The position numbers were made by a program, and so were the translations under genes. Below the pieces are notes generated by a model. It did not search any database, had not been told where the DNA came from, and saw only the letters and a list, made by a program, of their open reading frames with translations. Shown here in pieces: positions 7,901 to 54,890 of a stretch of DNA of 64,000 bases. The stretch's first letter is position 1. Each line of letters begins with the position of its first letter. This stretch comes from an uncultured Clostridia bacterium (GTDB lineage Bacteria > Bacillota > Clostridia > TANB77 > CAG-508), in the NCBI GenBank assembly GCA_947624195.1, contig CANQJH010000001.1, positions 49,233 through 113,232 of the forward strand. Direction: 5' to 3'.

Positions 7901-8033
7901 TTTATATACGTATTTTATACTAAAAAATAAACAAAATCAAGATATAAAAAAATTTTTTTATATAAATAAAATTTAAAATATAAAAAGTTCGCAAAGTGTT
8001 GATTTTAAAAGCTAATCTCCGAAAAATAAATTA

Positions 8034-8056
8034 TCATTAAGTACATTACTTAATGA
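8034..8056 (+). promoter_or_regulatory. perfect inverted repeat (10-bp arms, 3-bp spacer) 27 nt upstream of the start codon
   Basis: tcattaagta-cat-tacttaatga; the same arms recur at 9731..9753 upstream of the paralog. Confidence 0.5.
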
Positions 8057-8082
8057 TAAAAATTTGAGAGGAGCAAAAGATA

Positions 8083-9399
8083 ATGAAAAACAAAGGAATA
8101 ACACTAGTTGCGCTAGTAGTAACAATAGTAATTATGTTAATTTTGGCAGGGGTAACATTGAGATTAGCTTTAGGGGAAAATGGATTGTTTAATATATCAA
8201 AACAATCAGTTGAAAAGTATGAGGAATCAGTCCAAAACGAAGAAGAAGAATTAGATGAATTACTAGAAGAATTAAAGCATATAATGCCAGAAGAGGCAGG
8301 AAAAGAGGTAGAAGTACCAAAAGCAGAGAAAGATAAGTGGGATTTAACAAAAGTAACACCAACAGCAGACGGAAAAGGAAATACAATACCAGTACCAAAA
8401 AATTTTTATTATGTAGGAGGAGATAAAGACTCAGGATTTGTAATATCAAGTGTAAGTGGAGATGATCTAAACAATAGTAAAAAAGGTAATGAATTTGTAT
8501 GGGTACCAGTAAAAGTTATAAATGATATGGTAATGTGTAAGGAACATACAACAGCTACAATTACTTTTGATGGAGTAAATTTTTCTTGTGATGGAAATGG
8601 ACACCCACATACACCGAACAAAGAATACTTGGTAGGACAACTTTATACTCCGACTACGGATAATGGATTTACTGCAGGAATACCATATACAGAATATAAT
8701 GAAAACATAATAAGGGAACCAGGATTGACAACAGTGGATACAGATGAAAATTTATCTAATTTTTTACAGACTACATCAAATGAATTTTTACAGGAGTTAC
8801 AAGAAGAATTTTATAAAATGGCAAAAAGTGTAGCAAAATATGGAGGATTTTATATAGGCAGATATGAAACATCAGGTTTAAATGACGGCGAGGAACCAAA
8901 AGTACAATCGGGACTAGTACCAACGGGAAACATTAACTGGTATACAATCTACAAAAATAGTAAAAAAATAGCCCAAGAAGGTTCAAATGTAACAAGTAGT
9001 ATGATATGGGGAAGTCAATGGGACTATGTACTAAATTGGATGCAAGACATAGAAAATCCAACATTGACAGAAGAAAAGAAATATTACATTATGGACAGTA
9101 GAGGAATGGGTTGGTATTATGGAGAAACAGGAAACAATGAGCATAAAACAGGAATAGATTTGATAAAGGACGGAAAAGTAACCAATAAAGAAAAAAATAT
9201 TTATGATTTTGCAGGAAATTTTGAGGAATTAAATATGGCTTGCTCGGGCGGTACAGTACGTGCTTTACGTGGAGGATCTTATAAGCTGGAGGGAAATGTT
9301 CGTCCTGCTTGTAACCTTCGACTGGTAAGACCTGACGCTATATATGAGTGGGTTAGTAGTCGAGTTACACTTTGTATAAACTTGAATCCGGGGGAGTAA
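8083..9399 (+). CDS. pilin-like-anchored surface protein with a C-terminal FGE-sulfatase/C-type-lectin-like domain; candidate DGR target 1
   Basis: N-terminus KGITLVALVVTIVIMLILAGV resembles a type IV prepilin signal but lacks F+1 and E+5; a coiled-coil stalk follows. The C-terminal motifs IYDFAGNFEE, RGGSY and RLVR match the FGE-sulfatase fold. The 3' end is GC-rich and A-depleted. Confidence 0.8.
   Translation: MKNKGITLVALVVTIVIMLILAGVTLRLALGENGLFNISKQSVEKYEESVQNEEEELDELLEELKHIMPEEAGKEVEVPKAEKDKWDLTKVTPTADGKGNTIPVPKNFYYVGGDKDSGFVISSVSGDDLNNSKKGNEFVWVPVKVINDMVMCKEHTTATITFDGVNFSCDGNGHPHTPNKEYLVGQLYTPTTDNGFTAGIPYTEYNENIIREPGLTTVDTDENLSNFLQTTSNEFLQELQEEFYKMAKSVAKYGGFYIGRYETSGLNDGEEPKVQSGLVPTGNINWYTIYKNSKKIAQEGSNVTSSMIWGSQWDYVLNWMQDIENPTLTEEKKYYIMDSRGMGWYYGETGNNEHKTGIDLIKDGKVTNKEKNIYDFAGNFEELNMACSGGTVRALRGGSYKLEGNVRPACNLRLVRPDAIYEWVSSRVTLCINLNPGE
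9235..9396 (+). other. putative DGR variable-region-like patch in target 1
   Basis: Local GC far above the window background, depleted in A, with rare codons (TCG, GGC, CGT, CGA); coincides with the last beta-strands of the lectin-like fold. Confidence 0.45.
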
Positions 9400-9566: not shown

Positions 9567-9783
9567 AATTGTCGTTAAGTAATATACTTGACGATATATT
9601 CATATATGTATTTTATACTAAAAAATAAACAAAATCAACACTTTATATAATTTTCTTTTTGAAATAAAATTGAAAATATAAAAAATCTGTAAAGTGTTGA
9701 TCCTCAAGACTAATCTCCACAAATAAATTATCATTAAGTATATTACTTAATGATAAAAATAAAAAATTGGAGAGGTGCGGAAG
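9567..9783 (+). repeat. duplicated 5' regulatory region (copy 2), including the operator-like palindrome at 9731..9753
   Basis: Homologous to 7870..8082; contains tcattaagta-tat-tacttaatga. Confidence 0.7.
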
Positions 9784-11076
9784 ATGATGAAAAACAAAGG
9801 AATAACACTAGTTGCTTTAGTAGTAACAATAATAATTATGTTAATTTTAGCAGGGGTGACATTAAATATTGCTTTAGGTGATAACGGATTAATAAAGCAA
9901 ACAAAAAAAGCAGCGGATTTAGCAAAAGAGTCTATGAAAAATGAGGAAGAAGATGTAGGAAAACTAGTTAATCAATTAGATGAAGTAATAAAAGAAAGTT
10001 TACCAAGTACAGTAAAAGAAGCAATAGAAACAGAAGAAATATTTACAGTTAATAAGAAAATAACGGATGAAAGTGGAAAAACAATGGTAGTACCAAAAGG
10101 CTTTAAAGTAATAGAAGAAACTAATATAGATAGTGGCGTAGTCATAGCAGACGGAGAAGGTAATGAGTTTGTATGGGTACCATGTGAAGATGGTGAATAT
10201 AAAAAACATGTATATGATGTAAAACAAATAGATGATGCTACTACTACTTTAGCTGATGGAGTAAACAAAGAAAAAGGTTGGACTACATTACAGTATAGAA
10301 AATATAGTGATTGGAAAGATGAAGTAGATGAAGTGGCAAATATAAAAAGTGTGGAAGATAATAAAGGATTTTATATAGCGAGATATGAAGCGGGTGTACC
10401 CAAGAATGCAGATTTTTATGTAGAGGCTTCTGCTGAAGGAGTTAAAAATAAAAATTATCCACAAAGTAAAAATGATATAAGTGATAATATAAAGCCAGTA
10501 AGTAAAAAAGGAGTGCAAACATGGAATTTAATAAGTCAAATAAATGCTAAAACCGTATCCGAAAGAATGTATAGCGGAGAATCTTACGGAGTAAGAAGTC
10601 AACTAGTAGATGGAACTGCATGGGACACTGCCGTAACATGGATGTCAAAAGAGTACGTAGGAATAGAAAAAAATAGTACAAATTATGGAAATTATAATAA
10701 CACACCTACAAAAGAAATAACAGGCTTATATGCAGCACATACTTATAGTGATGGTTGGCAATTAGCAACAAGTTATGGTTATGGAAAAAAAAGTATAGGT
10801 GGAAGAAGTAGTTTGAGAACTGAAATAGCGACAGGCTTAGTAAATGAGTTTAAACTAAAAAACATATATGATATGGCTGGAAATATGTATGAATGGACTA
10901 CAGAATATGGATATCATGATGGTGGAACCAGCAGTACAAAATATGTTGTTCAGCGAGGAGGATGTCCTACTGACGATGGTGGTGTCCACCCAGTTTCTGT
11001 TCGTAGTGGCTATTGGGCAGAAACGGTAGAAAATAATCCTGTATTTGGTTTTCGAGTTGTACTTTATGTAAAATAA
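9784..11076 (+). CDS. pilin-like-anchored protein with a C-terminal FGE-sulfatase-like domain; candidate DGR target 2, paralog of target 1
   Basis: Same N-terminal KNKGITLVALVVTIIIMLILAGV anchor and stalk. C-terminus carries IYDMAGNMYEWT, QRGGC and GFRVV. The ORF track starts at a GTG at 9775; the ATG at 9784 has a better RBS. Confidence 0.8.
   Translation: MMKNKGITLVALVVTIIIMLILAGVTLNIALGDNGLIKQTKKAADLAKESMKNEEEDVGKLVNQLDEVIKESLPSTVKEAIETEEIFTVNKKITDESGKTMVVPKGFKVIEETNIDSGVVIADGEGNEFVWVPCEDGEYKKHVYDVKQIDDATTTLADGVNKEKGWTTLQYRKYSDWKDEVDEVANIKSVEDNKGFYIARYEAGVPKNADFYVEASAEGVKNKNYPQSKNDISDNIKPVSKKGVQTWNLISQINAKTVSERMYSGESYGVRSQLVDGTAWDTAVTWMSKEYVGIEKNSTNYGNYNNTPTKEITGLYAAHTYSDGWQLATSYGYGKKSIGGRSSLRTEIATGLVNEFKLKNIYDMAGNMYEWTTEYGYHDGGTSSTKYVVQRGGCPTDDGGVHPVSVRSGYWAETVENNPVFGFRVVLYVK
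10920..11073 (+). other. possible variable-region-like 3' segment of target 2 (weaker composition signal)
   Basis: Moderately GC-enriched relative to the gene body; homologous in position to the patch in target 1 but with a codon indel relative to it. Confidence 0.3.
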
Positions 11077-11296: not shown

Positions 11297-11731
11297 TTGG
11301 AGAAATTAAACTTAGCAACAATAAATAAGGCTCATAGTAAAAACATAAAAATAGGTGAATTAAATGAGCAAGTTATAGAATTATTAAAATTAGATTTAAA
11401 ACCACAGAATATTAATATTTGGTCATCCAGATTAAAAGAACATTGTGAAAAACACAAAGATGAATACTCTAGTGTAAATGCATATAATCAAGCAATAAGA
11501 TTTATTCCGGAGATAATTAAAAATCCAGATTATGTTGGATTACATAGAAATGGTAATATTCAGTATGTAAAAAAGTTAGAAGACATATCTTTAGTCGGAA
11601 TACAAATTTTAAAAGGTAGTGGGCACTTATTATTTAGAACAATTTTCCCAATTTCAGAAACAAAGTTGAAAAAATCTGTAAGAAGTGGAAAGCTAATAGA
11701 ATTTAAAAATAAACAAAGAGAAAATACATAA
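11297..11731 (+). CDS. hypothetical protein, 144 aa
   Basis: Intact ORF whose 3' end is duplicated at 7740..7840; no family recognised with confidence. Confidence 0.5.
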   Translation: MEKLNLATINKAHSKNIKIGELNEQVIELLKLDLKPQNINIWSSRLKEHCEKHKDEYSSVNAYNQAIRFIPEIIKNPDYVGLHRNGNIQYVKKLEDISLVGIQILKGSGHLLFRTIFPISETKLKKSVRSGKLIEFKNKQRENT

Positions 11732-12148
11732 AGTATTTCCTCTTTTTAATTTTGGTTAATAGGTAGGACGGCGTACCCTACATCTACTTATAAGACCATC
11801 TCTGGCGTGATAGCTGCCACTTTCTATCCTCAATTAACCTACTATGAGTGTACTCATAATTTTAAAAATTATGCATTACCTATATGTAAATATATTACAA
11901 AAATCTCAATAAGTCAATAGGTTTTAATTATTTTTTACAATTGTTGAACTAATTATAACTATATTTTAACATATTATTATAATTATGTCAACGGCTAAGA
12001 TATAGAATTTTTTCGTTTGTGCCTTTTTTTACTTTTTAATTGTAAAAAAATTTACATACTTTATTTTAATATTCGCCTCACTTTAAATTATTTTTTGTTT
12101 TTTTGCTCCTTTCTATATTTTACCAGTACAAGATGACACAATCTCCCT

Positions 12149-12571
12149 GTGATAACTTTACATAATTTTTATGACTTTTTTATGCAACTAAACTCCTTAT
12201 ATTTTTTTCCTTATTTTTTATATGTCCTTTTGCCATTGTTAACATCACTACAAACGTTAAACTTAGCATTAAATTCATTTTCTTCAATCCTCGTATGGGA
12301 AAATAATTGGGATAATATTCAACCATTTTTCAAATATGGACCACAGACAAGAAAAATAATGTATACAACAAATGCGATTGAGAGTCTAAATAATTGTTAT
12401 AAAAGATTAAATAAAGGAAGACGAGTATTTCCAACGATTCAAGCACTAGAAAAAAGCATGTATTTATCAACTCAAATGATTATTGAAAAATGGACTAGCA
12501 GATATGCGAACTGGGGCGTAACATTGGCAGAATTAAATATTTATTTTCCAGATAGGGTAAATATAGATTAA
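12149..12571 (+). pseudogene. IS256-family transposase, C-terminal fragment only
   Basis: Residues IMYTTNAIESLNNCYKRLNKGRRVFPT...KWTSRYANWGVTLAELNIYFPDRV match the conserved C-terminus of IS256/mutator-type transposases. The catalytic N-terminal two-thirds are absent and the upstream part of the ORF is nonsense. Confidence 0.75.
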
Positions 12572-20388: not shown

Positions 20389-20598
20389 AAAAATTATTAT
20401 TAATTATATAGTTTAATAATAAATTTTTTCACTTAAAGTATATGGTATTAAAATATTTTTGTCAATACTATGTTGATAAAAATTTTTTTATTTTTTTCAT
20501 CAAAATAATTCAAAAAGCCTGATATAACTGTGAAACAAGTATTTTTAAATTATTATTAAACTATATATTTAATAATAAATAAAAAATAGGAGGAAACC
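20389..20598 (+). repeat. 5' regulatory region of target gene 3, duplicated (about 95% identity) upstream of target gene 4
   Basis: Near-identical to 24787..24994 down to the RBS (ataggaggaaaccatg). Confidence 0.8.
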
Positions 20599-21807
20599 AT
20601 GGAAAAACAAAAGAAACAAGGAATTTTGAACATTAAAAACAGTAAAGGTATAACGTTAGTAGCATTAGTAATAACCATAATAATAATGCTAATATTAGCA
20701 GGGGTGGCATTAAGACTAGCATTAGGAGAAAATGGTTTATTTAAAATGTCAGAGAAAGCAGTAGAGAAGTATAAAGAGGAAGCAGCAAAGGAAGAAAATA
20801 CACTAGGGAATATGGAAAAACAACTAAAGTACATGATAGAGGGCTATGTGCCAGACAGAAGTATGCTAAAAGTAGGAGATGAAGTAAATTATACGCCCCA
20901 AACGGCAAAAACGACATATACTTTAGAAGGTAACAAAAGTGGATACGGAGACTATACAAGTAGTAAACCTAAAACAATGACAAAAGCAACAGACCAAGAA
21001 ATAAGTCAAGAGAATTATACATGGAAGATAATGGACATAAATAGTAAAACAGGAGAAGTAAAAATAATGGGCGTACCAACAAGTAGTATGCCTACAGTAT
21101 ATTTCAAAGGAGCATTAGGATATAACAATGGAGTATATCTTTTGGATGATATATGTAAAACATTATATAGTAATAGTGACTTGGGAGTAACAGCAAGAAG
21201 TATAGATATAGAAGATATTGAAAGTAAAATGAATGACAAAGGAAGAGATGCAAAAAATGATTATATATCAGAAAATCAAACAACCAAAGAATTTAACGGA
21301 AGTAATGCATATTACCCTAACATATATAAATATCAACAAGATTCAAATATAGATGGAACAGAAAAGACAGAAGGAATAAGTGAAAGTGATGATGGAACAA
21401 AAACAGAAGCAGGAATACCAATTGAGCATGCAACAAATGTAGAAGGATATACACAAGCAGAAACAAGTATCACAGTAAAAGGAACATACTATTATGCAAC
21501 GCAAAATGCAGGATATTTTGATGATGAAGACTTTTACAATTTAATGTTTAAAACAGGTACATATTATTGGCTTGCTTCGCGTTATTCTGGTTGCTTCTCG
21601 AGTAGCTCTTGTGCTGACTTTGGGCTTCGCATTGTGGCCAGCTCTAGCATCAACGGTTACAAAATGTTCAATTCGGATGGCGATTACGACGACGACAATA
21701 TTCGCGTTTGCCCGGTAGTTTCTCTAGGGGCTAATATCCAAATCACAAGAGATGGAAACGCAGGAGCATGGGACTTATCGAAGGACCCAAATTTTGGTGG
21801 ATTTTAA
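20599..21807 (+). CDS. pilin-like-anchored protein with a C-terminal DUF1566/Fib_succ-major-like (C-type-lectin superfamily) domain; candidate DGR target 3
   Basis: N-terminus KGITLVALVITIIIMLILAGV plus an ALGENGLFKMSEKAVEKYKEE stalk shared with the other three targets. The C-terminus has YYW...NIRVCPVVSL resembling the YWSS...VRCVR motif of DUF1566. Confidence 0.75.
   Translation: MEKQKKQGILNIKNSKGITLVALVITIIIMLILAGVALRLALGENGLFKMSEKAVEKYKEEAAKEENTLGNMEKQLKYMIEGYVPDRSMLKVGDEVNYTPQTAKTTYTLEGNKSGYGDYTSSKPKTMTKATDQEISQENYTWKIMDINSKTGEVKIMGVPTSSMPTVYFKGALGYNNGVYLLDDICKTLYSNSDLGVTARSIDIEDIESKMNDKGRDAKNDYISENQTTKEFNGSNAYYPNIYKYQQDSNIDGTEKTEGISESDDGTKTEAGIPIEHATNVEGYTQAETSITVKGTYYYATQNAGYFDDEDFYNLMFKTGTYYWLASRYSGCFSSSSCADFGLRIVASSSINGYKMFNSDGDYDDDNIRVCPVVSLGANIQITRDGNAGAWDLSKDPNFGGF
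21561..21735 (+). other. putative DGR variable-region-like patch in target 3 (strongest composition signal)
   Basis: The first ~90 nt contain roughly 10% A by hand count, against roughly 35-40% A in flanking coding sequence. Dense TGC/TCG/CGC/GGC codons; the composition falls back to normal about 80 nt before the stop. Confidence 0.5.
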
Positions 21808-24786: not shown

Positions 24787-24994
24787 AAAATTATTATTAA
24801 TTATATAGATTAATAATAAATTTTTTCACTTAAAGTATATGGTATTAAAATATTTTTGTCAATACTATGTTGATAAAAATTTTTTTATTTTTTTCATCAA
24901 AATAATTCAAAAAGCCTGATATAACTGTGAAACAAGTATTTTTAAATTATTATTAAACTATATATTTAATAATAAATAAAAATAGGAGGAAACC
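24787..24994 (+). repeat. duplicated 5' regulatory region (copy 2) upstream of target gene 4
   Basis: See 20389..20598. Confidence 0.8.
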
Positions 24995-25981
24995 ATGAAA
25001 AAACAAAAGAAAGAAAACAAGTTCAACTTAAAAGAACAAGGTATAACGCTAGTTGCGTTAGTAGTAACAATAATAATACTTTTAATCTTAGCAGGAGTAA
25101 CAATCAACATAGCTTTAAGGGAAAATGGATTATTTAAAATGTCAGAGAAAGTAGTAGAGAAGTATAAGGAAGAAGCAGGAAAGGAAGAGGAAACATTACA
25201 GGATTTAGAACAACACATAAAAAATAATACACCCGTTGAACCAGCAGAAGAACCTAAAGAGCCTATAGGAAAAACACCGTATGTAGGATATTATGCAAGT
25301 AGAGATGGAATAACAGTAGATGGAATAATATATGCAGACCAAGCAGTAGGAAATACAAACGGAACAAAATGGAGTGATGGTGATGGAACCTACACAATAC
25401 CAATAAAAGAAGAAGGCTTAAAGGAATACTATATAAGTCAAGAATCATACACAACAGAAGCCTTTGGACCAAAACCTGTGTTAACACCAATAAATGATGA
25501 AGGAGAAGACAGATTTTATATCATGTCACTTGAAGATTTTGGAGGAAAAGGACAAAGTTATTATTGGTATTATAGCGCATTTAAAAATATGAGTGATTAT
25601 AGTACAGCAACATCAACAAAATTTGGAACTGGAAAAACCAATACAGAGAACATGGTAGCAAAGTGGACGGCGGGAGAAAGTGAAGATGGTTATGGAAAGC
25701 AAGATGGGGGAAGCACATATAAAGATATATGGGGATACTTTTCAAGAAAAGAAATACCAGAAGGATGGTTTTTACCATCAAGAGGAGAATTAGCAGCATT
25801 TATGCAAGAATTAGGGATAAACAGCAGTAATTATTCTAATCAATTTCAATTATCTAGTTATTACTGGTCGTCGTCGCAGTTCAATTTTAACTACGCATGG
25901 CTCGCGTACATGCTTATTGGTTGTATGAGCAGCTACACTGTGAATTACGGCCGCTGCGTGCGCCTGAGTGCGACTTTCTGA
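24995..25981 (+). CDS. pilin-like-anchored protein with a C-terminal DUF1566-like domain; candidate DGR target 4, immediately upstream of the RT
   Basis: N-terminus QGITLVALVVTIIILLILAGV and a conserved stalk. The C-terminus SSYYWSSSQFNFNYAWLAYMLIGCMSSYTVNYGRCVRLSATF fits the YWSS...AW...R.VRCVR signature. Confidence 0.75.
   Translation: MKKQKKENKFNLKEQGITLVALVVTIIILLILAGVTINIALRENGLFKMSEKVVEKYKEEAGKEEETLQDLEQHIKNNTPVEPAEEPKEPIGKTPYVGYYASRDGITVDGIIYADQAVGNTNGTKWSDGDGTYTIPIKEEGLKEYYISQESYTTEAFGPKPVLTPINDEGEDRFYIMSLEDFGGKGQSYYWYYSAFKNMSDYSTATSTKFGTGKTNTENMVAKWTAGESEDGYGKQDGGSTYKDIWGYFSRKEIPEGWFLPSRGELAAFMQELGINSSNYSNQFQLSSYYWSSSQFNFNYAWLAYMLIGCMSSYTVNYGRCVRLSATF
25855..25978 (+). other. putative DGR variable-region-like patch at the extreme 3' end of target 4
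   Basis: Roughly 18% A by hand count over ~120 nt. Contains TCG-TCG-TCG, GCG, CGC, GGC and CTG codons that are rare elsewhere in this AT-rich genome. Confidence 0.5.
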
Positions 25982-26004
25982 TTTTGTAAAAAATCAGAAA
26001 AATA

Positions 26005-26075
26005 TAGGCCTACATTATGTAAATAATGTAGGCAATTCAAACCGAGATATTCTTCGTAAGAAGAAACTCGGTTTG
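26005..26075 (+). other. two consecutive stem-loops between target 4 and the RT, neither followed by a U-tract
   Basis: taggcctacatt...aatgtaggc (26005..26033) and caaaccgag...ctcggtttg (26038..26075), the latter with a nested ttcttcgtaagaagaa palindrome. Confidence 0.5.
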
Positions 26076-26178
26076 AATTAAAAGGATTAGATTGATAAAA
26101 GGAAATTTATTATAGAAAATGCGAGTTTCATTATATTAAGTTTAAATACTCTTCTTATGAAGAGTATTTTTATAAGAG

Positions 26179-27321
26179 GTGTATATGGATAATAAGCTAA
26201 CTTTTGAAGATTTATATGAAGCATATAATTTATGTTTAAAAAATAAAAAAAATAAAATAGGAACATATAATTTTGTAAACTATAATTTATGCAAAAATTT
26301 AATGGAGCTACTAGAAGAATTAAATAATAAACAATACATTCAAAGACAATCTAATTGTTATGTAGTTAAGGATCCAGCATTGAGAGAAATATATGCAGCT
26401 CAATTTTTTGACAGAGTAGTACAGCATTTTTATATGAAAGAAGTAGAACATATTTTAGAAGAACAATTAGTTGACGGTTGTTGTTCATGTAGAAAAAATA
26501 AAGGTAATGATTATGCTCTTCAATTATTAAAGAAATATCTTAAAGTAGTATCGAATAATGGGAAAAAAGACTGTTACTTTCTTAAAATTGATTTATCTGG
26601 ATATTTTATGTCAATAGATAGAAAGCAAATAAGTCAAAAGTTCTTAAATCTTATAAGCAATAAATATAAAGGACCATATAAAGAATTACTCATTTATTTA
26701 ACTCCAATTATATTTGAAAATAATCCGGCAGTGAACTGTAAGTATAAATGTAATGAAAAAGTAAGAAACCTAGTACCTGAAAGAAGAAAAATGAATCCGA
26801 AATCCGATTATGGAATGGCTATAGGTAATTTGACTTCTCAGGCAGGTAGCAATTTTAATCTCAGTGAATTTGATAATTACGTTGTATATAAACTAAATCT
26901 AGTTAATTATATTAGATATGTTGACGATATGGTGATAATTTCAAATAATAAACAAGAGTTACAAAATGCAATGCCGTATATAATAAATAAACTTAAAGAA
27001 ACTAATCAATCTATAAGTGAAAAGAAAACTAAAATAGATACTGCGTATCATGGAGTACCATTTTTGGGAAAAGTTTCTTTTCCATACGGTTATCAAAAAG
27101 CTAAAAAATCGACAATAGTGAGAGTATATAAAAGGGGTAGAGAAATTAGATATAAGGACACAGACAATTTATTAGCAAAAACAAATTCGCAAATTGGATT
27201 GCTAAAAGGATATAACTGCAGAAAACTAATATTAAATTATTCTAAAATTATACAAAACAAAACGGGAGACGAAATTTATTTGAATGAAGAAATGTTAAAA
27301 TTTTGTAAAAAGAATAAATAA
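26179..27321 (+). CDS. diversity-generating retroelement reverse transcriptase
   Basis: RT motifs ALREIYAAQFFDRVVQH (motifs 1/2), LKIDLSGYFMSIDRK (motif 3), AIGNLTSQ (the DGR-specific GxxxSQ motif 4) and YVDDMVII (motif 5). The likely start is the ATG at 26185 with an aagagg RBS; the track begins at a GTG at 26179. Confidence 0.85.
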   Translation: MYMDNKLTFEDLYEAYNLCLKNKKNKIGTYNFVNYNLCKNLMELLEELNNKQYIQRQSNCYVVKDPALREIYAAQFFDRVVQHFYMKEVEHILEEQLVDGCCSCRKNKGNDYALQLLKKYLKVVSNNGKKDCYFLKIDLSGYFMSIDRKQISQKFLNLISNKYKGPYKELLIYLTPIIFENNPAVNCKYKCNEKVRNLVPERRKMNPKSDYGMAIGNLTSQAGSNFNLSEFDNYVVYKLNLVNYIRYVDDMVIISNNKQELQNAMPYIINKLKETNQSISEKKTKIDTAYHGVPFLGKVSFPYGYQKAKKSTIVRVYKRGREIRYKDTDNLLAKTNSQIGLLKGYNCRKLILNYSKIIQNKTGDEIYLNEEMLKFCKKNK

Positions 27322-27411: not shown

Positions 27412-28338
27412 ATGTATGATGATTATTTTAAAAATATAATTGGTGGAAGTATAAAGTCTCCAGAATACTATGTTTCTACATATGATAACCATACTTATCA
27501 GCCTAGACAAGTAAGTGCTCTTCCAGGATACAATTATTCTGCCGATACAAATTTTAATGACAATGACATTGAAGATTTATATCCAGATATTTATAAAATT
27601 GTATCCCCAATGGTAGATAAACTTTTAGACGGAAAAACTTTTGATAATGTAAATGAAGACATGTTGGTAAAATGGACTGTGGAAATCTATGATGCTCTTG
27701 AAGTTGATGATGATAATACCAAATTAGTAAATGATAATGTTGCTAAAACTGGCAGTAGTGTTATTTCTAATGGTACTAGTAGATCAAATGTAAATCAAGG
27801 AGTTGCAGGTAATAGTAGCAATAATACTATAAGACCTGGCTCTAACTATGAAAGTGAAACTACTAGCGCAAGGACTGCACAGAGAACGGTGCTATCTAAT
27901 ACAGTTGCAAATACACCTTCTAATACTATGACTAAAGCGGGAATAACTACACCTTCTTCTACAATAAGTAGTACAGCGGTCAATACATCATCTAATTCGA
28001 TAACTAATACAGGAGTAAGCGCATCACCTAATACAGTAAATAATGCAACAGTCAATGCAATATCTAATTCTACAACAAATAAAGAACCAAAAGTGGTTGA
28101 TGTAGTAAGTAGATATAGAAATTATAAAAATCCGCTTCTAAGGGATTTAATAAGAATATTGATTTTAAATAAATTATATGGAAATCGTAGACCGCCAAGA
28201 GGTATGCCAAGACCTTATCAAGACTTTGAACCAACATTTATTCCTATGCCAGATTATAGTAGTGTAAACACAGAAGTTTATAAACCTTATACTAATTATT
28301 CTAAAGCTTACTTAGACACACCTTATCCAGAAGAATAA
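27412..28338 (+). CDS. hypothetical protein with an S/T/N-rich low-complexity core and a Pro/Tyr-rich C-terminus
   Basis: The RBS is embedded in a hairpin (cctcactacat...atgtaggagg). The middle third is repetitive SNT/ANT; possibly a spore-coat-like structural protein. Confidence 0.45.
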   Translation: MYDDYFKNIIGGSIKSPEYYVSTYDNHTYQPRQVSALPGYNYSADTNFNDNDIEDLYPDIYKIVSPMVDKLLDGKTFDNVNEDMLVKWTVEIYDALEVDDDNTKLVNDNVAKTGSSVISNGTSRSNVNQGVAGNSSNNTIRPGSNYESETTSARTAQRTVLSNTVANTPSNTMTKAGITTPSSTISSTAVNTSSNSITNTGVSASPNTVNNATVNAISNSTTNKEPKVVDVVSRYRNYKNPLLRDLIRILILNKLYGNRRPPRGMPRPYQDFEPTFIPMPDYSSVNTEVYKPYTNYSKAYLDTPYPEE

Positions 28339-52424: not shown

Positions 52425-53615
52425 TTACTCCTCACCATTTACTAATCTTAACGTATCTCTAGCAATAACTAATTCTTCATTTGTTGGAATAACCCATACT
52501 TGTATTTTAGAATCATCGGTGGAAATTTTGATTTCTTCACCTTTTACAGAGTTTCTTTGATTATCAATTTTTACTCCCATATATTCTAAGTATTTGCAAA
52601 TATCTGCTCTAATGCCTACCTGGTTTTCTCCTACTCCAGCAGTAAATGTGATAACGTCAACTCCTTGCATAGCCATAGCATATTTTGCTATAAATCCAGC
52701 AACCGAGTATTTGTATTGTTTTAATGCTAAAATAGCTCTTTCATTTCCTTCTTGTGCAGCTGCTTCAATATCTCTTACATCCCTAGAAACTCCACTTATT
52801 CCATATAAGCCAGATTCTTGGTTTAGTATATTGTCCATTTCCTTTGATGTTAGATTTTCTTTTTCCATTAAAAAGGTTACGACTGAAGGATCTAAATCAC
52901 CTGAACGAGCACACATTGGTATACCAGCCACTGGGCTTAGTCCCATAGATGTTTCTACAGATTTTCCATTTTGAATTGCACAAATGCTTGCACCTTGTCC
53001 TAGATGGCAGTTAATTACTTTTAAATCTTTTCTATTTAAAATCTCTGATATTCTATTTGAAACATAATAATGTGAAGTTCCGTGAAATCCATATTTTCTT
53101 ATTTTGTATTGATCTTTATATTTATATGGAATTGGATAGGTATATCTTTCTTCAGGGATAGTCTGGTGGAAAGCTGTATCAAATACGGCAACCATAGGCT
53201 TTCCTGGCATAATTTCTTGACATGCTCTAATTCCTATAATAGCACAAGGATTATGTACTGGTGCTAGGCTTGAAATATCATCAATTGATTTTATAACATC
53301 TTCATTAATTAATACAGAACCTTTGAAAGTACTTCCTCCATGAACTATTCTGTGACCAATTGCGTTAATTTCATTTACATTAGATATAGACGGATATTCT
53401 TTGTTTAATAATTGTTCTATAACAAAATCTAATGCTTCCTTATGATTATTTACAGGATGTTCTAAAACATATTTTTCTCCGTTAATTTTATGTGTTAAAA
53501 AAGATTTCTCTCCTATTCTTTCATAGGTGCCTTTTGAAATTACCTCTTCATTTTCCATATTTATTAATTGATATTTTAAAGAAGAGCTTCCGCAATTTAT
53601 AACTAAAATTTTCAT
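52425..53615 (-). CDS. ackA: acetate kinase
   Basis: MKILVINCGSSSLKYQL N-terminus and conserved ASKHA-fold motifs. Confidence 0.9.
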   Translation of the reverse strand: MKILVINCGSSSLKYQLINMENEEVISKGTYERIGEKSFLTHKINGEKYVLEHPVNNHKEALDFVIEQLLNKEYPSISNVNEINAIGHRIVHGGSTFKGSVLINEDVIKSIDDISSLAPVHNPCAIIGIRACQEIMPGKPMVAVFDTAFHQTIPEERYTYPIPYKYKDQYKIRKYGFHGTSHYYVSNRISEILNRKDLKVINCHLGQGASICAIQNGKSVETSMGLSPVAGIPMCARSGDLDPSVVTFLMEKENLTSKEMDNILNQESGLYGISGVSRDVRDIEAAAQEGNERAILALKQYKYSVAGFIAKYAMAMQGVDVITFTAGVGENQVGIRADICKYLEYMGVKIDNQRNSVKGEEIKISTDDSKIQVWVIPTNEELVIARDTLRLVNGEE

Positions 53616-53696: not shown

Positions 53697-54890
53697 TTAT
53701 GAGCATAGATGTTTTGTTTCATATGCAATAGCAAGTTCCTCATTTGTTGGTACAACATATACATGCACTTTTGAATCATCAGCTGAAATTTTGGCTTCAA
53801 CTGCAAAAGCATCTTTATTTGCTTTGCTATCTAGTTTAACACCCATAAATGATAGGTAGTTACAAATAGCTTCTCTTGACTGAGGGCCCCTCTCTCCTAC
53901 TCCGGCAGTAAATGATATAACATCTACACCGTTCATTGCCACAGCACATCTAGCTATATAACATGCAATTAGATAATGGTAATTATCAAGAGCAAGCTGT
54001 GCCATTTCATTTCCTTCGGATTGAGCTTTTTCAATATCTCTATTGTCAGACGAAACACCTGAAATACCATATAAGCCAGATTTTTTGTTTAATATTGTTT
54101 CCATTTGTTCTGGAGTTAAATTTTCTTTTCTCATAATATATGTAACAACTGATGGATCTAAATCTCCTGAACGAGAACCCATTGGAATACCTGCAACAGG
54201 AGTAAGTCCCATTGATGTTTCAACTGATTTTCCATTTTGTATAGCGCAAATGCTTGCACCCTGTCCAATATGGCAGTTTATAATTTTTAAGTCTTCAACT
54301 GGTTTTCCCTCAATTTCTGCCACTCTTTTTGAAACATACATATGTGATGTGCCATGGAAACCATATTTTCTTATTCCATATTTTTCATAATATTCATATG
54401 GAATTGGATAAATAAATCTTTCTTTAGGTATTGTTTGATGAAATGCTGTATCAAAAACAACTACATTAGGCTTACCTGGAATGTCGCGTTCGCAAGCTTC
54501 TATTACCATAGCAGCTGCTGCATTATGTAGTGGAGCTAATTCAGCACATCTCTTTATTTCTGCTAAAACACTGTCATCTACTAAAACAGATTTGTTAAAT
54601 TTTTCTCCTCCATGTACTATTCTATGACCAATGCTGTCGATTTCATCTAGTGATTTAATTACTCCATATTCACTATGTAATAATTGGCCTAAAACAAATT
54701 TTAATGCTTGTTCATGATTTTGAACTGGATTCTCAATTTTTATTTTTTCTCCATTTACCTTATGTGTTACAAATGAATTGTCACTTCCTATCCTTTCGTA
54801 ATTTCCTGATGCAAGGGTATTTGCAGTATCCATATCTATTAATTGATATTTCAATGATGAACTTCCTGCATTTAAAACTAAAATTTTCAT
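53697..54890 (-). CDS. acetate kinase paralog
   Basis: MKILVLNAGSSSLKYQLIDM; full-length paralog directly upstream of ackA, with an acetate-kinase-type rather than butyrate-kinase-type N-terminus. Confidence 0.85.
   Translation of the reverse strand: MKILVLNAGSSSLKYQLIDMDTANTLASGNYERIGSDNSFVTHKVNGEKIKIENPVQNHEQALKFVLGQLLHSEYGVIKSLDEIDSIGHRIVHGGEKFNKSVLVDDSVLAEIKRCAELAPLHNAAAAMVIEACERDIPGKPNVVVFDTAFHQTIPKERFIYPIPYEYYEKYGIRKYGFHGTSHMYVSKRVAEIEGKPVEDLKIINCHIGQGASICAIQNGKSVETSMGLTPVAGIPMGSRSGDLDPSVVTYIMRKENLTPEQMETILNKKSGLYGISGVSSDNRDIEKAQSEGNEMAQLALDNYHYLIACYIARCAVAMNGVDVISFTAGVGERGPQSREAICNYLSFMGVKLDSKANKDAFAVEAKISADDSKVHVYVVPTNEELAIAYETKHLCS

What the first reader, a model, noticed from the sequence alone, without database searches (positions are those of the whole stretch)
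21561..21735. Adenine depletion and rare GC-rich codons confined to the 3' lectin-fold patches of all four family members
By hand count, the first ~90 nt here have about 10% A. The equivalent patch at 25855..25978 has about 18% A. Surrounding coding sequence runs at roughly 35-40% A and under 30% GC. Codons such as TCG, GCG, CGC and GGC are otherwise scarce in this genome but cluster here, at 25855..25978, and at 9235..9396. Adenine-specific mutagenic homing replaces template A's with any base. That process would produce exactly this local A deficit without changing the rest of the gene.
Basis: seen in the sequence. Interest (0 to 1): 0.8.

Follow-up and report, generated by a model that had tools for sequence, protein, structure and literature searches.

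The report
Retroelement variable regions, template lost
The adenine-poor, GC-rich patch is the variable region of a diversity-generating retroelement target gene (a pilin-like surface protein ending in a lectin-fold domain), a well-known kind of system; the unusual detail is that the only reverse transcriptase nearby has lost its template repeat and accessory gene.

Summary
Of 16,486 coding 90-nt windows, the patch at 21556 has the lowest A (11%; mean 40%). The patch at 25889 has the highest GC (53%) and the worst codon adaptation. TCG/GCG/CGC/GGC are about 6-fold enriched in the four patches (p=8e-9).

ORF 26185-27321 is an intact DGR-type reverse transcriptase (IGNLTSQ, YVDD). Eight relatives of it carry a pilin-like target with VR, a basic accessory ORF, a TR and the RT. 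In the seven fully tabulated, 159 of 164 core TR/VR mismatches fall at TR adenines. The window's 25855-25981 is homologous to those VRs.

In the window about 710 nt are missing, from the accessory gene's ATG to all but the last 11 nt of the TR.

The focal patch (VR 21565-21728) belongs to a different DGR lineage (MutS-like, bAvd, TR, RT of about 315 aa). A true TR for that VR type exists in other genomes. No cognate TR lies in the window or 10 kb either side.

Third-position A is 3-6% in these two VRs, as in live VRs, against 45% background. The patches at 9235 and 10921 are decayed (24-31%).

Verdict: new members of a known kind, of moderate interest.

The parts
20599..21807 (+). g3: pilin-like target gene (402 aa) holding the focal patch
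   Evidence: ORF. N_methyl motif 16.9 bits, below the Pfam cut-off. More than 3,500 homologues. AF2 model pLDDT 85.6 with an N-terminal helix and a C-terminal C-type-lectin-like domain.
21565..21728 (+). g3 variable region (VR), MSL/bAvd-lineage type; ends CCGGTAGTTTCTCTAGG
   Evidence: Lowest-A window of the 64 kb. Homologous to the L021 VR/TR pair. Variable codons correspond to AAY codons of that TR. Third-position A 6%.
24995..25981 (+). g4: pilin-like target gene (328 aa) of the adjacent DGR
   Evidence: ORF. Weak Lcl_C hit. 34-49% identical to the targets next to related RTs.
25855..25981 (+). g4 VR (core 25865-25981), with a VR-type 3' end GAGTGCGACTTTCTGA (IMH-like, 25966-25981)
   Evidence: Aligns with the VRs of L001-L008. 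Against heterologous TRs, about 58% of A sites are changed and about 25% of non-A sites. Highest GC and lowest CAI in the window.
25979..26078 (+). Three hairpins directly after the VR (25979-25996, 26007-26033, 26035-26078)
   Evidence: DNA fold -30.6 kcal/mol, z=-10.8. Conserved in position in the relatives, with changes on both stem arms.
26121..26131 (+). Remnant of the template repeat: its last 11 nt, GCGAGTTTCAT (TR-type end), fused to the accessory gene's ATG; the deletion junction is at about 26119/26120
   Evidence: Alignment A3 shows an internal gap of about 710 columns in the window relative to L001/L003/L007. blastn. No accessory-protein homologue by tblastn.
26144..26169 (+). Conserved hairpin between the TR end and the RT start
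   Evidence: Fold z=-5.6. Present in all aligned relatives.
26185..27321 (+). Intact DGR-type reverse transcriptase (378 aa from the ATG; 380 from GTG 26179)
   Evidence: RVT_1 E=5e-15. Motifs LKIDLSGYF, IGNLTSQ and YVDD. 66-77% identical to RTs flanked by TR/VR pairs.
8083..9399 (+). g1: pilin-like paralogue with an FGE-sulfatase-like C-terminus; patch 9235-9396 is a decayed VR-like region
   Evidence: A 19-23%, GC 51%. A-free synonymous codons 64%. Third-position A 24%. K/E/W at positions that vary in the family.
9775..11076 (+). g2: pilin-like paralogue with an FGE-sulfatase-type C-terminus; patch 10921-11073 is a decayed VR-like region
   Evidence: FGE-sulfatase weak hit. The family has 21 hypervariable columns with low K/E/Q/M/W. 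g2 itself has A-containing scaffold codons, Q/W/E at variable positions and third-position A of 31%.
20390..20585 (+). Upstream region of g3, 99% identical to that of g4 (24787-24982)
   Evidence: Repeat family D4.

Best explanation
The patch at 21561-21735 is the variable region (VR) of a diversity-generating retroelement (DGR) target gene. So is the patch at 25855-25981.

In a DGR, an RNA copy of a template repeat (TR) is reverse-transcribed with random misincorporation opposite adenines, and the cDNA overwrites the VR. Structural (scaffold) codons of the TR avoid A so that they are copied faithfully. Diversifiable positions are AAY codons. The VR therefore inherits A-free, locally rare codons (TCG, CGC, GGC and similar) and loses most of the A's in its AAY codons. 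In a genome with 45% A at third positions this gives a sharply bounded A-poor, GC-richer patch.

The targets are surface proteins with a type-IV-pilin-like N-terminal helix and a C-type-lectin-fold C-terminus. The window holds three VR classes on this shared chassis:
- g4 is Lcl_C-like and is served by the adjacent 378-aa RT lineage.
- g3 is served in other genomes by a lineage with a MutS-like protein, bAvd, a TR and an RT of about 315 aa.
- g1 and g2 are FGE-sulfatase-like.

In this strain the adjacent element is crippled. About 710 nt are deleted, from the accessory gene's start codon to all but the last 11 nt of the TR, so it cannot template g4.

Shown: the composition, the RT, the deletion, the homology to proven TR/VR pairs, and the family-level AAY signature.

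Inferred: g3 and g4 were overwritten recently, because their third-position A (3-6%) matches VRs that still have a TR. g1 and g2 stopped being templated longer ago (24-31%).

Unknown: whether a TR for g3 survives elsewhere in the genome.
For: Composition extremes are.

The RT has DGR motifs and is intact.

In eight related loci a TR lies immediately upstream of the RT, roughly 640-920 nt downstream of the VR (start to start), with no non-A mismatch in the best 50-nt windows and up to 11-16 A mismatches per window. TR A of 30-37% falls to 14-23% in the VR, and 159 of 164 core mismatches are at TR adenines.

The window's g4 VR aligns to those VRs and keeps the VR-type end. The TR-type end survives as an 11-nt remnant, and about 710 nt are missing.

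The g3-type TR in L021 differs from its VR only at adenines. The architecture MutS_I-like, bAvd, TR, RT is seen in L047 and L048.

g3 residues at the 21 AAY positions of that TR are NNY-coded in 20 of 21 cases.

Hypervariable columns exclude K/E/Q/M/W: 1.7% in the g3 family, 8% against 28% in the g2 family.

The P0015 cluster varies almost only in the VR.

There is an excess of differences at codon positions 1 and 2 in the VR.

Third-position A in live VRs is 0-7%, against 6% in g3 and 3% in g4.
Against: No TR for any of the four patches was found in the window or in 10 kb on either side. This held for ungapped A-aware scans and for gapped scans with heterologous TRs.

No accessory gene is present.

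No sequence variants of the g3 or g4 proteins exist in the database, although the strain was assembled in at least four contigs. Current diversification in this strain is therefore not shown.

g3 has one Lys (AAA) at a variable position.

For g1 and g2 no TR was found anywhere. Their assignment rests on family-level variability and composition only.

Confidence: 0.88

Rival explanations
1. The DGR system is still live in this strain. A TR, with its own RT and accessory genes, lies elsewhere in the genome and diversifies g3, and perhaps g4, in trans. The RT at 26185 would then be a decaying duplicate, or would be served in trans.
For: g3 and g4 have third-position A as low as VRs with an intact TR. 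All four g3/g2-family homologue loci examined (L011, L012, L013, L051) lack an RT or TR within 10 kb, so remote targeting looks usual for these families. Remote targets are documented for non-phage DGRs (PMC5758913). Three independent Logan contigs all start at window 25960, at the 3' edge of the g4 VR, which suggests sequence heterogeneity upstream. The RT ORF is intact.
Against: No TR was found in 84 kb. No VR variants of either protein are in the database. The contigs examined from three other assemblies (L042, L045, L055) match the window, and L042 and L055 carry identical g4 VRs (L042 also g3) and the same deletion. The g3-type RT lineage is only 27% identical to the RT here.
Confidence: 0.3
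2. The patches are fossils only. All DGR activity on these four genes ended in this lineage, and the composition is a relic that is slowly decaying under AT mutation pressure.
For: The TR and accessory gene are deleted. The VRs are identical across assemblies. g1 and g2 show the expected intermediate decay. The family contains fixed, non-variable members such as the P0087 cluster.
Against: g3 and g4 show essentially no decay at synonymous sites, so the loss must be very recent. The intact RT ORF and the contig breaks at the VR edge fit less well.
Confidence: 0.55
3. The patch is foreign DNA (horizontal transfer or gene conversion from a GC-richer donor), or it simply reflects the amino-acid composition of a lectin domain, with no retroelement involved.
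For: The patches are GC-richer than the genome. DGR cassettes themselves move horizontally. Scaffold nucleotides are conserved across species.
Against: The anomaly starts and stops inside the gene at the VR boundaries and does not extend into the flanks. It is visible in synonymous codon choice. The variable positions match TR adenines. An RT with proven TR/VR relatives is adjacent.
Confidence: 0.03

Closest known systems
Canonical DGRs (Bordetella phage BPP-1 Mtd/Avd/TR/bRT; Treponema denticola TvpA; Legionella LdtA)
   Same: RT with the (I/V)GxxxSQ motif. In relatives, a TR about 130-160 nt long that differs from the VR only at adenines. The VR lies at the 3' end of a C-type-lectin-fold domain. 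The repeat ends differ between VR type and TR type (IMH/IMH*-like). There is a hairpin just after the VR. The accessory protein is basic. Variable positions are AAY codons.
   Different: In the window itself the TR and accessory gene are deleted. The targets carry a type-IV-pilin-like N-terminus rather than a phage tail-fibre or lipoprotein context. The RT lineage shows no phage association.
DGR 'Architecture D' with a MutS-like (MSL) gene plus avd (Wu et al. 2018, PMC5758913)
   Same: The g3-type VR is served in other genomes by cassettes in the order target, MutS_I-like protein (145-149 aa), bAvd (113-117 aa), TR, RT. This matches the MSL+avd class. The paper describes remote targets for non-phage DGRs in general.
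   Different: None of these components is in the window. g3 here is an orphan VR, at least locally.
Bacteroides DGRs that diversify type V pilus adhesins (bioRxiv 10.1101/2024.11.15.621889)
   Same: Gut bacteria that diversify pilus-associated adhesive proteins by DGR.
   Different: A different phylum and pilus system. Here the N-terminus resembles type IV pilins or pseudopilins. Only a passing mention of 'GspG-type pilin' among rare DGR target domains was found (PMC11661182).

Membership tests
Diversity-generating retroelement (DGR) | Reverse transcriptase of the DGR type (RVT_1 with the (I/V)GxxxSQ motif and YxDD) | tested here: met
   26185-27321: RVT_1 E=5e-15. IGNLTSQ and YVDD are present, and the protein aligns over its full length to relatives. 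Those relatives sit next to TR/VR pairs.
Diversity-generating retroelement (DGR) | A template repeat that matches the variable region except at adenines, in the same locus | tested here: not met
   No TR/VR pair in the window or 10 kb either side. Only an 11-nt TR remnant remains at 26121-26131. The feature is met in relatives: L001-L008 and L021.
Diversity-generating retroelement (DGR) | VR at the 3' end of a target gene, in a C-type-lectin (or Ig) fold | tested here: met
Diversity-generating retroelement (DGR) | Distinct VR-type and TR-type 3' ends (IMH/IMH*) and a hairpin after the VR | tested here: met
   For g4, the VR ends ...GCGACTTTCTGA and the TR type ends ...GCGAGTTTCAT in all relatives and in the window's remnant. 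Hairpins lie at 25979-26033. For g3, the VR has CCCGTAGTTTCTCTAGG (CCGGTAG... in the window) and the TR has CCCGTAGATTCTATAAAC. Function was not tested.
Diversity-generating retroelement (DGR) | Accessory gene (avd, HRDC, MSL or CH1) | tested here: not met
   Absent from the window (tblastn). Relatives have a 154-aa basic ORF (pI 9.6, no Pfam hit) or MutS_I-like plus bAvd genes.
Diversity-generating retroelement (DGR) | Variation among near-identical genes confined to the VR and to TR-adenine positions | tested here: inconclusive
   Met in the family: the P0015 cluster has 49 of 64 variable columns in alignment columns 475-549, the region that holds the VR. K/E/Q/M/W are excluded from hypervariable columns. 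For the window's own g3 and g4 no variants are on record. Contig breaks at the VR edge are only a hint.
Type IV pilin / pseudopilin (N-terminal methylation motif) | Class III signal peptide: G followed by a hydrophobic helix, with Glu at +5 | tested here: inconclusive
   PF07963 scores 16-17 bits, below the 21.2 cut-off, in three of the four window genes (g1-g3) and in the L003 orthologue of g4 (15 bits); g4 itself gave no hit. The sequence KGITLVALVVTI has no Glu at +5. Profile matches to geopilin and MshA in the PDB have E=0.25-0.45. The AF2 model has a helix at 15-42.

The most novel reading that the evidence does not exclude
A large family of type-IV-pilin-like surface proteins in gut Clostridia may act as a common chassis that has captured lectin-fold variable modules from at least two, probably three, separate DGR lineages. 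Most copies would be diversified in trans from remote cassettes. In this strain the VRs of g3 and g4 look freshly written although the only local RT has lost its TR and accessory gene, and three independent assemblies break exactly at the g4 VR edge. That would imply a trans-acting template elsewhere, possibly shared RT usage across loci, rather than simple decay.
Probability: 0.25. Interest if true: 0.6.

Novelty: new member of a known kind. Interest (0 to 1): 0.4.

Why it matters
It shows that a purely compositional cue can locate DGR variable regions even when the template repeat is absent, a case in which detection that depends on finding a TR/VR repeat pair would be expected to fail. The cue is a sharply bounded adenine-poor patch with A-free rare codons at the 3' end of a gene in an AT-rich genome.

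Third-position A content gives a rough clock for time since the last templating: 0-7% in live VRs, 24-31% in decayed ones, 45% in the background.

Biologically, it documents pilin-like, lectin-tipped surface proteins as a large DGR target family in gut Clostridia (thousands of homologues). It also records a naturally truncated DGR in which the RT is kept but the TR and accessory gene are lost.

Tried and rejected
1. Searches for a TR in the window all found nothing beyond the VRs themselves. These were ungapped identity scans, A-aware scans of each patch, an all-against-all A-aware scan on both strands, and gapped Smith-Waterman searches with heterologous TRs.
2. Extending 10 kb beyond each window end found no TR or RT.
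3. Three homologue loci of g3 and one of g2 had no RT or TR within 10 kb.
4. Viral contigs gave nothing relevant. There was no relative of the g3 C-terminal domain or of the RT. Exact-pattern scans for the predicted TR ends gave only chance hits in GC-rich phages.
5. A search with a hypothetical TR-encoded peptide found 12 TR ORFs in other genomes, none cognate to g3.
6. The conserved element downstream of g3-type TRs is absent from the window.
7. Rfam found no riboswitch or other known RNA upstream of the pilin-like genes.
9. Horizontal transfer and amino-acid composition were rejected as sole causes.
10. An assembly collapse between VR and TR was rejected as the cause of the deletion. The junction lies between the accessory gene's ATG and the TR's last 11 nt, not inside the repeat, and the same junction is seen in independent assemblies.

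Full report
**Observation**

The window is AT-rich: 37% A on the + strand, and 45% A at third codon positions.

The focal stretch 21561-21735 is 18.9% A and 46.8% GC, and its first 90 nt are 12.2% A. I compared it with all 16,486 in-frame 90-nt windows of 48 ORFs.
- It has the lowest A of any window (0.111, against a mean of 0.401 and sd 0.069).
- It has the most A-free codons (70%).
- The patch at 25889 has the highest GC (53%) and the lowest codon-adaptation score.
- The patches at 9235 and about 10921 are also near the extreme.

The four patches hold 1.15% of codons but 17 of 259 TCG/GCG/CGC/GGC codons (p=8e-9), including 4 of the 12 CGC codons.

The bias is visible in synonymous choice. 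A-free codons among eight degenerate amino-acid families make up 34% in the background. They make up 81% in g3, 68% in g4, 64% in g1 and 47% in g2 (the last not significant).

The skew stops at the patch edges. It is strong for two genes, weaker for g1 and marginal for g2.

**What surrounds it**

Four genes share a pilin-like N-terminus (KGITLVALVVTIIIMLILAGV; sub-threshold N_methyl hits in g1-g3, none in g4):
- g1, 8083-9399
- g2, 9775-11076
- g3, 20599-21807
- g4, 24995-25981

Their C-termini differ. g1 and g2 are FGE-sulfatase-like. g3 has a YWLASR...FGLR...PVVSL type. g4 is Lcl_C-like.

About 200 nt after g4 lies an intact reverse transcriptase (26185-27321). It carries the DGR hallmark IGNLTSQ and YVDD.

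**The g4 element**

A scan of one genome per species found ten loci encoding relatives of this RT (64-77% identity over the matched parts). In eight of them a TR of 125-140 nt lies just upstream of the RT. A matching VR lies at the 3' end of a pilin-like gene roughly 640-920 nt further upstream (start to start), and a basic 154-aa ORF sits between them.

The best 50-nt windows of each pair have no non-A mismatch. Over the cores of seven of these pairs plus the L021 pair described below, 159 of 164 mismatches are at TR adenines. A falls from 30-37% in the TR to 14-23% in the VR.

The window's 25855-25981 aligns with those VRs and keeps the VR-type end (GCGACTTTCTGA). Even against TRs from other species, about 58% of TR-A sites differ from it, compared with about 25% of non-A sites.

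In the window the post-VR hairpins are followed by the accessory gene's ribosome-binding site and ATG. That ATG is fused directly to the last 11 nt of the TR (GCGAGTTTCAT, 26121-26131). About 710 nt are missing.

The junction is not inside the VR/TR repeat. The same junction occurs in independent assemblies. It is therefore a real deletion and not an assembly collapse. The RT is full-length.

**The focal patch (g3)**

g3 has more than 3,500 homologues. They share a conserved scaffold, YWLASRYS.C.S....A.FGLR.V..S.L.G...F.S.G.......RVAPVVSL. It holds 20 hypervariable columns in which K/E/Q/M/W together make only 1.7%. That is the repertoire expected from AAY-to-NNY mutagenesis.

Within one 90%-identity cluster (P0015), 49 of 64 variable columns lie in alignment columns 475-549, the region that holds the VR. 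Another cluster (P0087) has a fixed, E/Q-rich equivalent region, so the family also contains non-diversified members.

A metagenome scan found a locus (L021) with a true TR for this VR type. Every difference from its VR is at a TR adenine. MutS_I-like and bAvd genes lie between the VR and the TR.

Two further loci show the full order: target, MutS-like gene, bAvd, TR, and an RT of 314-317 aa. This corresponds to the MSL+avd architecture of Wu et al. 2018 (PMC5758913). That RT is only 27% identical to the one in the window.

The window's patch is nucleotide-homologous to the L021 VR, including a nearly identical 3' end (one base differs). Its residues at the 21 AAY positions of that TR are NNY-coded in 20 of 21 cases.

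Against its 82%-identical homologue, differences per codon at positions 1/2/3 are 0.35/0.20/0.18 in the VR and 0.12/0.05/0.16 elsewhere.

**Is it live?**

No cognate TR exists in the window or 10 kb either side. All four g3/g2-family homologue loci that I examined also lack an RT or TR within 10 kb. Remote targeting therefore seems usual for these families.

The g3 and g4 proteins have no sequence variants in the database, although the strain is represented by several contigs.

Against that, third-position A is 6% in g3 and 3% in g4. This is the same as in VRs that still have a TR (0-7%), and far from the 45% background. g1 and g2 are intermediate at 24% and 31%. I infer recent templating of g3 and g4, and older loss for g1 and g2.

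Three Logan contigs from different runs all begin at 25960, the 3' edge of the g4 VR. This hints at heterogeneity upstream. It cannot be resolved without reads.

**g1 and g2**

Their families show the same kind of hypervariable, N/Y/S/D/G-rich columns: 8% K/E/Q/M/W in those columns against 28% elsewhere. I found no TR for them. g1 and g2 themselves carry A-containing scaffold codons, and Q/W/E/K at positions that vary in the family. I read them as decayed VRs, with lower confidence.

**Comparison and verdict**

This is a DGR system in mechanism and, for the RT and the VRs, in membership. The window's own element fails two defining features: it has no TR and no accessory gene.

The closest relatives are the canonical DGRs and the MSL+avd class. 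The closest biological analogue is DGR diversification of Bacteroides type V pilus adhesins. Pilin-type N-termini on DGR targets received only a passing mention in the literature I could search.

Novelty: new members of a known kind, with a naturally truncated cassette. Interest is moderate.

Noticed in passing
window 11755-11838 (-): A skipping-rope RNA (Rfam RF02924, 63 bits, E=7e-13) lies just downstream of a PBECR3 nuclease-like ORF (11297-11731).
   Followed up: no
window 20390-20585 and 24787-24982; also 7901-8063 and 9599-9760: The upstream regions of g3 and g4 are 99% identical over 196 nt. They carry two palindromes of the form TTATTATTAA-N9-TTAATAATAA. The upstream regions of g1 and g2 share an 81-98% identical stretch with the palindrome ATCATTAAGTA...TACTTAATGAT. 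These could be a shared operator, or a recent gene conversion of the promoters.
   Followed up: partly
window 25960 (contigs L056-L058): Three Logan contigs from independent runs (ERR10663787, ERR10663788, ERR10663789) all start at exactly this base, the 3' edge of the g4 VR, and end at different places. This suggests an assembly-graph branch, meaning heterogeneous sequence upstream.
   Followed up: partly
window 12070-12571: A Mutator-family transposase fragment lies at 12149-12571. The only five differences between the window and another sample's contig (L042) over 21 kb fall at about 12070-12128.
   Followed up: no
L021 1440-1520; proteins P0121-P0132: ORFs called across g3-type TRs in twelve genomes share a conserved tail (RPVDSINCGYAIINCIRDNIETN). 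This reflects a conserved nucleotide element, with a TCTATAA...TTATAGA hairpin, just downstream of the TR. It is probably part of the DGR RNA needed for priming.
   Followed up: partly
L007 10001-14572; L048 9214-12085: In L007 the related RT gene is split by an insertion of about 3.4 kb. L048 carries two convergent MutS-like/bAvd/RT cassettes.
   Followed up: no
L011 1-5000 and 20178-21152: In another genome, the tandem pilin-like paralogues (orthologues of g2 and g3) sit beside conjugative-element genes (TraG-like, integrase, ArdC, PcfJ). In the window the context is housekeeping genes (uvrA, uvrB, cmk, murD).
   Followed up: no
window 27412-28338 (+): A 308-aa S/T/N-rich low-complexity ORF with no family hit lies directly after the RT. 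It is not conserved at that position in L005, the one relative whose downstream region was listed.
   Followed up: no
window 52425-53615 and 53697-54890 (-): Tandem paralogous acetate kinase genes, 73-78% identical at the nucleotide level.
   Followed up: no
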